From NCBI RefSeq assembly GCF_013167455.1, contig NZ_CP038328.1: a stretch of 64,000 nt of DNA, one strand, 5' to 3'. This DNA is from Escherichia coli O157:H7. Lineage in GTDB: Bacteria; Pseudomonadota; Gammaproteobacteria; Enterobacterales; Enterobacteriaceae. A program made the position numbers. Shown piece by piece: positions 45,601-47,307 of the stretch (position 1 is the stretch's first letter; each line of letters begins with the position of its first letter).

Positions 45601-47307
45601 AACATAAATGACTGAAAAACAAAGCCGACGTGCTTCGCGCGCAACTTTGCCCGCGCTTCTTCGTCCATATTATGTAGCGGTTGTCCCACCAGACTCACTT
45701 CGCCACTGCTGCCGTCATCCAGCCCGGCGAGGATCGCCAGCAAGGTTGACTTACCCGATCCCGACTCGCCCACCAGTGCGATGGTCTCGCCACGTTTGAC
45801 AACCAGCTCAACTCCGGTGAGGATGGAGAGTTCATGCTCCCCCTGACCGACGGACTTCTTAAGATGATGAACTTCAACAATGTTTTCCGCTGGCATTTGC
45901 CCTTCCTGTTTCTGGTCCTGTTAACCTTCCGTGCTGCCGCAGCGGACACGTTATTGATTCTGGGTGATAGCCTGAGCGCCGGGTATCGAATGTCTGCCAG
46001 CGCGGCCTGGCCTGCCTTGTTGAATGATAAGTGGCAGAGTAAAACGTCGGTAGTCAATGCCAGCATCAGCGGCGACACCTCGCAACAAGGGCTGGCGCGC
46101 CTTCCGGCTCTGCTGAAACAGCATCAGCCGCGTTGGGTGCTGGTTGAACTGGGCGGCAATGACGGTTTGCGTGGTTTTCAGCCACAGCAAACCGAGCAAA
46201 CGCTGCGCCAGATTTTGCAGGATGTCAAAGCCGCCAACGCTGAACCATTGTTAATGCAAATACGTCTGCCTGCAAACTATGGTCGCCGTTATAATGAAGC
46301 CTTTAGCGCCATTTACCCCAAACTCGCCAAAGAGTTTGATGTTCCGCTGCTGCCCTTTTTAATGGAAGAGGTCTACCTCAAGCCACAATGGATGCAGGAT
46401 GACGGTATTCATCCCAACCGCGACGCCCAGCCGTTTATTGCCGACTGGATGGCGAAGCAGTTGCAGCCTTTAGTAAATCATGACTCATAAAGCAACGGAG
46501 ATCCTGACAGGTAAAGTTATGCAAAAATCGGTCTTAATTACCGGATGTTCCAGTGGAATTGGCCTGGAAAGCGCGCTCGAATTAAAACGCCAGGGTTTTC
46601 ATGTGCTGGCAGGTTGCCGGAAACCGGATGATGTTGAGCGCATGAACAGCATGGGATTTACCGGCGTGTTGATCGATCTGGATTCACCAGAAAGTGTTGA
46701 TCGCGCAGCCGACGAGGTGATCGCCCTGACCGATAATTGTCTGTATGGGATCTTTAACAATGCCGGATTCGGCATGTATGGCCCCCTTTCCACCATCAGC
46801 CGTGCGCAGATGGAACAGCAGTTTTCCGCCAACTTTTTCGGCGCACACCAGCTCACCATGCGCCTGTTACCCGCGATGTTGCCGCACGGTGAAGGGCGTA
46901 TTGTGATGACCTCATCGGTGATGGGATTAATCTCCACACCGGGTCGTGGCGCTTACGCGGCCAGTAAATATGCGCTGGAGGCGTGGTCAGACGCGCTGCG
47001 CATGGAGCTGCGCCGCAGCGGAATTAAAGTCAGCCTGATCGAACCCGGTCCCATTCGTACTCGCTTCACCGACAACGTCAACCAGACGCAAAGTGATAAA
47101 CCAGTCGAAAATCCCGGCATCGCCGCCCGCTTTACGTTGGGACCGGAAGCGGTGGTGGACAAAGTACGCCATGCTTTTATTAGCGAGAAGCCGAAGATGC
47201 GCTATCCGGTAACGCTGGTGACCTGGGCGGTAATGGTGCTTAAGCGCCTGCTGCCGGGGCGCGTGATGGACAAAATATTGCAGGGGTGAGTTGAAGCGCG
47301 CGCTTAA

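What the first reader, a model, noticed from the sequence alone, without database searches (positions are those of the whole stretch)
45864..45896. Divergent tesA and ybbA coding regions overlap at their 5' ends
With the conserved starts (tesA MMNFNN… at 45864 on the plus strand; ybbA MPAENIV… at 45896 on the minus strand) the two divergent genes overlap by 33 bp, so their promoters must lie inside each other's coding sequence. This suggests possible transcriptional interference between the lipid-metabolism gene and the transporter.
Basis: seen in the sequence. Interest (0 to 1): 0.25.

Follow-up and report, generated by a model that had tools for sequence, protein, structure and literature searches.

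The report
Real, conserved tesA–ybbA head-to-head overlap
The start regions of the E. coli lipid hydrolase gene tesA and its partner transporter gene ybbA do overlap on opposite strands by 30–33 bases, a rare arrangement for bacteria that is conserved and already recorded in the reference annotation and in recent papers.

Summary
ATG 45864 (+) opens tesA and ATG 45896 (−) opens ybbA, so the CDSs overlap by 33 bp, as in the K-12 reference annotation. The tesA start conserved across species is the second ATG (45867), which gives 30 bp.

Evidence that the overlap is not a start-codon artefact:
- ybbA has no other usable start codon.
- In 80 Enterobacteriaceae species, both ATGs are invariant.
- Synonymous sites of ybbA are almost frozen across the overlap, the tesA 5'UTR and the tesA promoter (3/9, 5/11 and 7/14 sites variable, against 187/191 in the rest of the gene).

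A published TSS (Kim 2012) puts the tesA promoter (TTGACA-17-GAGGAT, TSS 45832) inside ybbA codons 22–34. The only ybbA TSS candidates (46051, 46238, 46283) are weak and lie inside tesA. The promoters are therefore nested face-to-face, and the two mRNAs are antisense over at least 220 nt.

In eight of ten distant TesA homologues the two called starts lie −33 to +64 bp apart.

Interference is plausible (the pair is listed as a divergent excludon) but untested. It is also in tension with YbbA2–YbbP–TesA being one physical complex.

Verdict: real and rare, but already known. Modest interest.

The parts
45864..45896 (.). Dual-coding overlap: tesA codons 1-11 (+) and ybbA codons 1-11 (-). It is 30 bp if counted from the conserved tesA ATG at 45867.
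   Evidence: Sequence and translation. K-12 and PGAP annotations. Wobble sites of both genes are nearly invariant here in 77-78 species.
45867..46490 (+). tesA CDS from the conserved start (MNFNN...). The K-12 annotation starts 3 nt earlier, at 45864. The signal peptide is encoded up to 45941 and mature TesA (ADTLL...) begins at 45942.
   Evidence: ORF list. N-termini of 120 homologues. PDB chains of mature TesA start at residue 27 of the precursor.
45210..45896 (-). ybbA CDS, encoding the ATPase of the YbbAP type VII ABC transporter.
   Evidence: ATG 45896 is the first start codon after the in-frame stop at 45923. The next canonical start is codon 42. The protein is identical to PDB 9GE6/7/8 YbbA, and NBD homologues align from residue 5-10.
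45796..45824 (+). tesA sigma-70 promoter: -35 TTGACA (45796-45801), a 17-bp spacer, and -10 GAGGAT (45819-45824). It lies inside ybbA codons 25-34.
   Evidence: The sequence upstream of the published TSS is identical to the window. This is the only relaxed consensus match on the + strand. The block CGTTTGACAA is invariant, and ybbA wobble sites of codons 32-34 are frozen.
45832..45866 (+). tesA 5' UTR, running from the mapped TSS (45832) to the conserved ATG. It lies inside ybbA codons 11-22.
   Evidence: Kim et al. 2012 supplement: TSS 519021 (-), 45 reads, 32-nt UTR to the K-12 start. ybbA wobble sites are variable at only 5/11 here. The RNA is unstructured, z +0.4.
45900..45907 (-). ybbA Shine-Dalgarno sequence AGGAAGGG, inside tesA codons 13-15.
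   Evidence: Duplex energy with the anti-SD is -7.0 kcal/mol. tesA wobble variation is reduced over codons 11-15, 3/5 variable.
46247..46276 (-). Candidate ybbA promoter TTTGCA-N18-AACAAT inside tesA. It predicts a TSS near 46240.
   Evidence: Relaxed sigma-70 scan. It coincides with the weak Cappable-seq TSS at U00096.2 518615, which is window 46238. Coordinate mapping is in the notes.
46051..46283 (-). Span holding the three weak candidate ybbA transcription starts (46051, 46238, 46283). All are inside the tesA CDS and give 5' UTRs of 155-387 nt antisense to tesA.
   Evidence: Kim 2012: 518802 and 518570, 2 reads each. Cappable-seq: 518615, RRS 2.45, with no other + strand TSS up to the ybbA ATG. 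An 8-nt invariant block TCATTATA lies at -14 to -7 of the 46283 start and covers a candidate -10 CATTAT.
45834..45836 (+). Decoy upstream in-frame ATG, preceded by the strong SD-like GGAGAG at 45825-45830. It is not the tesA start.
   Evidence: The SD-like motif lies upstream of the mapped TSS 45832 and so is absent from the mRNA. The codon is CTG or TGC in 10 of 80 species, and its variation follows ybbA His/Gln21.
42799..45213 (-). ybbP, the permease gene, co-transcribed downstream of ybbA with a 4-bp overlap.
   Evidence: ORF list and annotation.
46480..47289 (+). ybbO, an aldehyde reductase gene downstream of tesA with an 11-bp overlap. It is part of the putative tesA-ybbO operon.
   Evidence: ORF list and annotation. 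Operon statement in PMC12646458.

Best explanation
This is a genuine, evolutionarily maintained head-to-head overlap of two protein-coding genes whose products work together.

Shown:
- ybbA must start at ATG 45896.
- tesA starts at ATG 45867 (or 45864), so 30-33 bp encode both proteins on opposite strands.
- On the tesA side the shared stretch encodes only the n-region of a cleaved signal peptide, which has loose sequence requirements. On the ybbA side it encodes the 10-11 residues leading into the first strand of the ATPase fold. This makes dual coding tolerable.
- tesA is transcribed from a sigma-70 promoter (TTGACA-17-GAGGAT, TSS 45832) that lies wholly inside ybbA codons 22-34.

Inferred from weak data: ybbA-ybbP is transcribed from one or more weak promoters 155-390 nt upstream, inside tesA. 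The two promoters therefore face each other, and the two mRNAs are complementary over roughly 220-450 nt.

Inferred: the near-zero spacing (-33 to +64 bp in distant gamma-proteobacteria) is kept because it holds the genes of the YbbA2-YbbP-TesA complex together. Both promoters are weak, so polymerase collisions and duplex RNA probably cause at most a mild, asymmetric damping of ybbAP by the stronger tesA promoter. An on/off switch is unlikely.
For: Start codons:
- The ybbA ATG is the first start codon after a stop, it has an SD, and the next canonical start is codon 42.
- NBD homologues align from residue 5-10.
- The ybbA ATG is present in 80/80 species. tesA ATG 45867 is also present in 80/80 species, but it was part of the motif used to anchor each locus. 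Independent of that anchoring, ybbA His10 is always CAT and never CAC, and CAT is the complement of that ATG.
- The alternative TTG 45897 is TGG or CTG in 10/80 species.

Dual constraint on synonymous sites:
- ybbA wobble sites are variable at 3/9 in the overlap, 5/11 in the tesA UTR and 7/14 in the tesA promoter, against 187/191 elsewhere (Fisher p 2e-7 to 1e-6).
- tesA wobble sites are variable at 2/8 in the overlap against 167/171 elsewhere.

Transcription:
- tesA TSS has 45 reads, and the upstream sequence is identical to the window.
- ybbA TSS candidates all lie inside tesA.

Context:
- The signal peptide is cleaved before A27.
- The complex has 2:1:1 stoichiometry, and the operon overlap has been noted in print.
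- 8 of 10 TesA representatives at 40-69% identity sit divergently next to ybbAP, with called gaps of -33 to +64 bp.
Against: - No direct mapping of the tesA initiation codon was obtainable. The signal peptide is cleaved, so N-terminal sequencing is uninformative, and the TIS-profiling supplements were not held.
- The SD before ATG 45867 is weak, -3.2 kcal/mol.
- ybbA TSS evidence is thin. There are 2 reads each in one dataset and one low-score Cappable-seq site, and none of them coincide.
- Only the + strand part of the Cappable-seq file was held, so the tesA TSS rests on one dataset.
- Start codons in the distant loci are gene-caller calls that I checked only by eye. L092 is unclear.
- The magnitude and direction of any interference are pure inference.
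Confidence: 0.8

Rival explanations
1. Functional excludon. The face-to-face promoters and complementary 5' regions make tesA-ybbO and ybbAP expression reciprocal, through polymerase collision or promoter occlusion and RNase III cleavage of the RNA duplex.
For: tesA-ybbA is listed among 16 divergent excludons found in at least 50% of 58 E. coli RNA-seq samples. The mapped and candidate TSSs imply 220-450 nt of antisense overlap. TSS reads are strongly asymmetric, 45 against 2. Near-zero spacing is conserved in distant taxa.
Against: The ExcludonFinder call is nearly automatic when annotated CDSs overlap, and no reciprocal expression or RNase III data were found. The products form one stoichiometric complex, for which anti-correlated synthesis makes little sense. 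Both promoters are weak, and by established models of transcriptional interference weak promoters give few collisions (own knowledge).
Confidence: 0.2
2. Annotation artefact. tesA really starts at TTG 45897, immediately abutting the ybbA ATG, so the coding sequences touch but do not overlap. This resembles the 0-bp or 2-bp arrangements in some distant homologues.
For: Several gene callers output 194-197-aa TesA starting at this codon. Distant homologues have gaps of 0 and -2 bp and shorter signal peptides. All long (over 60 bp) divergent overlaps examined in one survey were start-codon misannotations. The SD of ATG 45867 is weak.
Against: Codon 12 is TGG (6 species) or CTG (4 species) in 10 of 80 species. 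No SD precedes it, -1.5 kcal/mol. The resulting signal peptide would lack the Arg-containing n-region. ybbA wobble sites are more frozen in 45867-45896 (mean entropy about 0.15-0.16) than in the tesA UTR (0.51-0.53), as expected for protein coding on the other strand. ATG 45867 is present in every locus examined, as the complement of an invariant ybbA His10 CAT.
Confidence: 0.06
3. Longer overlap. tesA starts at the upstream ATG 45834, which has a strong SD-like GGAGAG. This would give a 36-residue signal peptide and a 63-bp overlap.
For: It has the best SD score of all candidates, -8.4 kcal/mol. Many database entries of 218-220 aa use it. The codon is ATG, GTG or TTG in 70/80 species.
Against: The mapped TSS 45832 lies downstream of the SD-like motif and only 2 nt before this ATG. 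The codon is CTG or TGC in 10 species, and its variation follows ybbA His/Gln21 codons. ybbA wobble sites of codons 19-21 and 23 are freely variable.
Confidence: 0.03

Closest known systems
The annotated tesA (b0494) / ybbA (b0495) overlap of E. coli K-12, and the YbbAP-TesA locus described by McAndrew et al., PLoS Biol 2025 (PMC12646458)
   Same: Same genes, same 33-bp overlap, same divergent tesA-ybbO and ybbA-ybbP operons. The paper states that the operons partially overlap and may be co-regulated.
   Different: Nothing structural differs.
Divergent excludons (ExcludonFinder, NAR 2025, PMC12288877; concept from Listeria)
   Same: Neighbouring divergent genes whose transcripts overlap in antisense at their 5' ends. 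tesA-ybbA is on the published E. coli list.
   Different: Classical excludons overlap through long UTRs and link genes of opposing function with reciprocal expression. Here the coding sequences themselves overlap, the products are partners in one complex, and reciprocity has not been shown.
Face-to-face (convergent) promoter pairs that cause transcriptional interference, such as coliphage 186 pR/pL (own knowledge)
   Same: Two promoters fire toward each other across a short shared region.
   Different: In the phage case one promoter is strong and interference is a measured several-fold effect forming part of a switch. Here both promoters are weak (45 and 2 TSS reads) and no effect has been measured.
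Overlapping prokaryotic gene pairs in general (PMC4161906, PMC2478687)
   Same: Adjacent CDSs sharing nucleotides, created by movement of start codons.
   Different: About 90% of overlaps are co-directional and short. Divergent overlaps are about 1% of the total, and only 2 of 663 overlapping pairs in E. coli. All divergent overlaps over 60 bp that were examined were misannotations. This 30-33-bp case survives the start-codon test.

Membership tests
Genuine divergent (head-to-head) CDS overlap | The start codon of the minus-strand gene (ybbA) is authentic and cannot be moved downstream. | tested here: met
   It is the first start codon after an in-frame stop and has an SD. The next canonical start is codon 42. 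NBD homologues align from residue 5-10. The ATG is present in 80/80 species.
Genuine divergent (head-to-head) CDS overlap | The start codon of the plus-strand gene (tesA) is authentic and lies upstream of the partner's start. | tested here: met
   Comparative evidence only. ATG 45867 is present in every locus, although the loci were anchored on it. Independent of that anchoring, ybbA His10 is always CAT. The downstream TTG is lost in 10/80 species. Partner-strand wobble sites are frozen. No direct initiation-site data were obtainable.
Genuine divergent (head-to-head) CDS overlap | The overlap is conserved in orthologous loci. | tested here: met
   The register is the same in 80 Enterobacteriaceae species and in the 69%-identical L083. 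It shrinks to between -2 and +64 bp in more distant taxa.
Excludon | Transcripts of the two neighbouring genes overlap in antisense. | tested here: met
   From published data only. tesA TSS 45832 and ybbA TSS candidates 46051-46283 imply at least 220 nt of overlap. The pair is listed in the E. coli excludome. The ybbA starts are weakly supported.
Excludon | Reciprocal (mutually exclusive) expression of the two units. | not testable with these tools
   No expression-correlation or promoter-knockout data were found.
Excludon | RNase III-dependent processing of the duplex region. | not tested
   No dataset covering this locus was located in the held literature.
Sigma-70 promoter (tesA) | -35 and -10 hexamers at proper spacing upstream of an experimentally mapped TSS. 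| tested here: met
   TTGACA (6/6), 17 bp, GAGGAT (3/6, with A2 and T6). The TSS lies 8 nt downstream and has 45 reads. The boxes are conserved at ybbA synonymous sites. The stricter default scan missed it.
YbbAP-TesA type VII ABC transporter-hydrolase system | Proteins identical or near-identical to the structurally characterised YbbA and TesA. | tested here: met
   YbbA is identical to the 9GE6/7/8 chains. Mature TesA matches 9GE8_T and 1IVN with one substitution.

The most novel reading that the evidence does not exclude
The roughly 110-nt zone (45794-45910) in which both genes' synonymous sites are frozen, together with the conservation of near-zero head-to-head spacing from Enterobacterales to Vibrio and Kangiellaceae, could mean that the face-to-face promoter arrangement is itself a selected control device for the YbbA2-YbbP-TesA complex. 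It might set the TesA:YbbAP ratio by asymmetric interference or duplex-RNA turnover, or it might hold a shared operator for an unknown regulator in the conserved promoter spacer CTCCGGTGAGGATGG. On this reading it would not be just a by-product of gene linkage.
Probability: 0.15. Interest if true: 0.45.

Novelty: already known. Interest (0 to 1): 0.2.

Why it matters
Divergent coding overlaps are the rarest class of bacterial gene overlap and are usually annotation errors. A verified, conserved example is therefore a useful reference case for start-codon annotation. Databases currently hold TesA at 194-220 aa for this one gene. It is also a clean example of promoters and a 5' UTR imposing selection on a neighbour's synonymous sites.

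Biologically, it links the expression of TesA and its YbbAP transporter, which were recently shown to form one complex. Anyone engineering tesA, a common fatty-acid production target, or deleting either gene will unavoidably damage the other gene's start, promoter or 5' UTR.

Tried and rejected
- **Default promoter scan.** It found no sigma-70 site in 45500-46300 because the tesA -10 box matches only 3/6. A relaxed scan and the published TSS resolved this.
- **RNA explanations for the conserved zone.** The tesA 5' region folds no better than shuffles (z +0.4 and +0.9). The ybbA 5' region is only mildly structured (z -1.8). There is no Rfam match at E ≤ 1. Rejected.
- **SigmaE-type motif.** A scan for GGAACTT-N15-17-TCNAA upstream of ybbA found nothing.
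- **Direct evidence for the tesA initiation codon.** The TRAINSPOTTER N-terminomics supplements contain neither tesA nor ybbA. The Ribo-RET preprint supplements are not held.
- **Further TSS sources.**
  - Thomason 2015 is not held.
  - The Conway 2014 and ExcludonFinder supplements are not held.
  - The Cappable-seq GTF is truncated to the + strand, so it gave no tesA TSS.
  - No Klebsiella TSS for the orthologues is present in the held part of Kim 2012.
- **Regulators or co-expression.** A literature search for tesA with ybbAP found only the structural papers.
- **Upstream ATG 45834.** Considered and rejected as the tesA start.

Full report
**What is there.**
Window 45864-45896 reads ATGATGAACTTCAACAATGTTTTCCGCTGGCAT. 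The + strand gives MMNFNNVFRWH, the start of the tesA precursor. The reverse complement gives MPAENIVEVHH, the start of ybbA.

The two frames are in exact antisense register. The two tesA ATGs are the complement of ybbA His10-His11 (CAT CAT), and the ybbA ATG is the complement of tesA His11.

The stretch is 100% identical to E. coli O157-type chromosomes and is present in 5418 of 5426 complete E. coli genomes. The K-12 reference annotates exactly this 33-bp overlap: tesA c(519139..519765), ybbA 519733..520419. RefSeq PGAP, on a sequence identical to the window, starts tesA at the second ATG (window 45867), giving 30 bp.

**Are the start codons right?**
Divergent overlaps are about 1% of prokaryotic gene overlaps. 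Only 2 of 663 overlapping pairs in E. coli are divergent. Every divergent overlap longer than 60 bp in one survey was a start-codon error. The starts therefore had to be tested.

*ybbA.*
- ATG 45896 is the first start codon after the in-frame stop at 45923.
- It has an AGGAAGGG Shine-Dalgarno sequence.
- The next canonical start is codon 42, inside the Walker A region.
- The protein is identical to the YbbA chains of PDB 9GE6/7/8, and LolD, MacB and MJ0796 ATPase domains align from residue 5-10 onward.
- The start cannot move.

*tesA.*
There are four in-frame candidates: ATG 45834, ATG 45864, ATG 45867 and TTG 45897. The 80 Enterobacteriaceae species come from the genome collection. Across them:

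| Candidate | State across 80 species |
|---|---|
| ATG 45867 | present in 80/80 (part of the motif used to anchor each locus) |
| ATG 45864 | ACG in 17 |
| ATG 45834 | CTG or TGC in 10; its variation follows ybbA His/Gln21 codons |
| TTG 45897 | TGG or CTG in 10 |

The conserved start is 45867. Mature TesA in crystal and cryo-EM structures begins at Ala27. The overlapped part of tesA therefore encodes only the n-region of a cleaved signal peptide.

**Independent evidence from synonymous sites.**
I aligned 77-78 collinear orthologous sequences and scored variation at third codon positions.

| Region | Variable wobble sites | Fisher p vs rest of gene |
|---|---|---|
| ybbA codons 36-228 (rest of gene) | 187/191 | – |
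| ybbA codons 2-10 (overlap) | 3/9 | 2e-7 |
| ybbA codons 11-21 (tesA 5' UTR) | 5/11 | 1e-6 |
| ybbA codons 22-35 (tesA promoter) | 7/14 | 4e-7 |
| tesA codons 2-10 (overlap) | 2/8 | 1.3e-7 |
| tesA codons 11-15 (over the ybbA SD) | 3/5 | 0.009 |
| tesA codons 16-26 | 11/11 | 1 |
| tesA codons 27-207 (rest of gene) | 167/171 | – |

The frozen zone runs from about 45794 to 45910. Within ybbA, freezing is strongest in the overlap itself (mean entropy about 0.15-0.16, against 0.51-0.53 in the UTR and promoter parts). That is what protein coding on the other strand predicts, because a ybbA wobble base is a tesA first codon position.

RNA structure does not explain the zone. The tesA 5' region folds no better than shuffles, and no Rfam family matches.

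**Where the promoters are.**
*tesA.* The supplement of Kim et al. 2012 (PMC3415461) lists a tesA TSS at NC_000913.2 519021 with 45 reads and a 32-nt UTR. The 51-nt upstream sequence it gives is identical to window 45782-45832. This places the TSS at 45832, with -35 TTGACA at 45796-45801, a 17-bp spacer and -10 GAGGAT at 45819-45824. All of it lies inside ybbA codons 22-34. The block CGTTTGACAA is invariant in all species.

The strong SD-like GGAGAG at 45825-45830, which lures gene callers to ATG 45834, lies upstream of this TSS and is not in the mRNA.

*ybbA.* The evidence is thin.
- Kim 2012 gives two TSSs with 2 reads each (518802 and 518570), which map to window 46051 and 46283.
- Cappable-seq (PMC4782308) gives one weak TSS at 518615, window 46238. 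It shows no other TSS on that strand up to the ybbA ATG.
- A relaxed consensus scan finds TTTGCA-N18-AACAAT at 46276-46247. This predicts a start near 46240.
- An invariant 8-nt block TCATTATA lies at -14 to -7 of the 46283 start.

All candidates are inside tesA. With the CDSs overlapping, there is no intergenic DNA in which a ybbA promoter could sit.

The promoters therefore face each other, and the two mRNAs are complementary over about 220-450 nt.

**Beyond Enterobacteriaceae.**
Ten TesA cluster representatives at 39-69% identity were traced to their contigs.
- Eight have ybbA-ybbP divergently adjacent. The called start-to-start gaps are -33, -2 (Vibrio), 0, +7, +21, +25, +52 (Kangiellaceae) and +64 bp.
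- Two lack the transporter next door. One of these is a short Francisellaceae contig carrying a transposase.
- In several of the eight, in-frame stops bound the starts closely. L092 is unclear.

None of these gaps leaves room for two promoters and two leaders. Nested face-to-face promoters therefore appear to be an old property of this locus. The 30-33-bp coding overlap is the Enterobacterales extreme, produced mainly by a longer TesA signal-peptide n-region.

**What it means.**
McAndrew et al. (PLoS Biol 2025, PMC12646458) showed that YbbA2-YbbP-TesA is a 2:1:1 complex. They noted that the tesA-ybbO and ybbA-ybbP operons partially overlap and may be co-regulated. ExcludonFinder (NAR 2025, PMC12288877) lists tesA-ybbA among 16 divergent excludons of E. 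coli. That call is almost automatic when the annotated CDSs overlap.

The suggested transcriptional interference is plausible but untested. A mutually exclusive switch fits poorly with partners of a single complex and with two weak promoters.

My best reading is as follows. The tight head-to-head arrangement is maintained because it links the partner genes. The dual use is tolerated because the tesA side is a low-constraint signal-peptide n-region. Any interference is a mild, asymmetric damping of ybbAP by the stronger tesA promoter (inference).

**Verdict.**
The overlap is real, conserved and a rare kind, but it is already annotated and already discussed in print.
- comparative proof of the start codons;
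- placement of the tesA promoter inside ybbA, together with its synonymous-site footprint;
- the observation that near-zero spacing extends to distant homologues.

Interest is modest.

Noticed in passing
window 45825-45836: An in-frame ATG (45834), preceded by a strong SD-like GGAGAG inside ybbA, leads many gene callers to output a 218-220-aa TesA. Public databases hold the same gene at 194, 197, 204, 207, 208 and 218-220 aa, so the start annotation is inconsistent.
   Followed up: yes
window 46285-46300: There is a perfect TATAAT on the + strand (46291-46296) inside tesA, in the RRYNEAF motif. The wobble base of Tyr142 is invariant and that of Asn143 nearly so across the 77 tesA sequences compared. 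The palindromic core TTATAA also supplies a CATTAT -10 for the minus-strand TSS at 46283. It could be an internal promoter for ybbO, a ybbA promoter, or neither.
   Followed up: partly
window 45210-45213 and 46480-46490: Both operons also have co-directional overlaps: ybbA/ybbP by 4 bp and tesA/ybbO by 11 bp. This fits translational coupling within each operon.
   Followed up: no
window ~45363 (-): Kim et al. 2012 list a weak TSS (519490, 3 reads) 150 nt upstream of ybbP, inside ybbA. It may be an internal promoter for the permease gene.
   Followed up: no
L057 (CACSKA010000001.1): A record titled 'Chryseobacterium sp. 18061' carries an 88%-identical enterobacterial tesA-ybbA locus. The assembly is probably mislabelled or contaminated.
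   Followed up: no
window ~46371-46373 (tesA residue 170 of the 208-aa precursor): The window's TesA has Leu where K-12 and PDB TesA have Phe (PLLPF[L/F]MEEV). This is a strain-level substitution.
   Followed up: no
window 45810-45826: The spacer and flank of the tesA promoter (ACTCCGGTGAGGATGG) are almost invariant, including ybbA wobble sites of codons 27-29. That is more than the -10 hexamer alone would require. It could be a binding site for an unknown regulator.
   Followed up: partly
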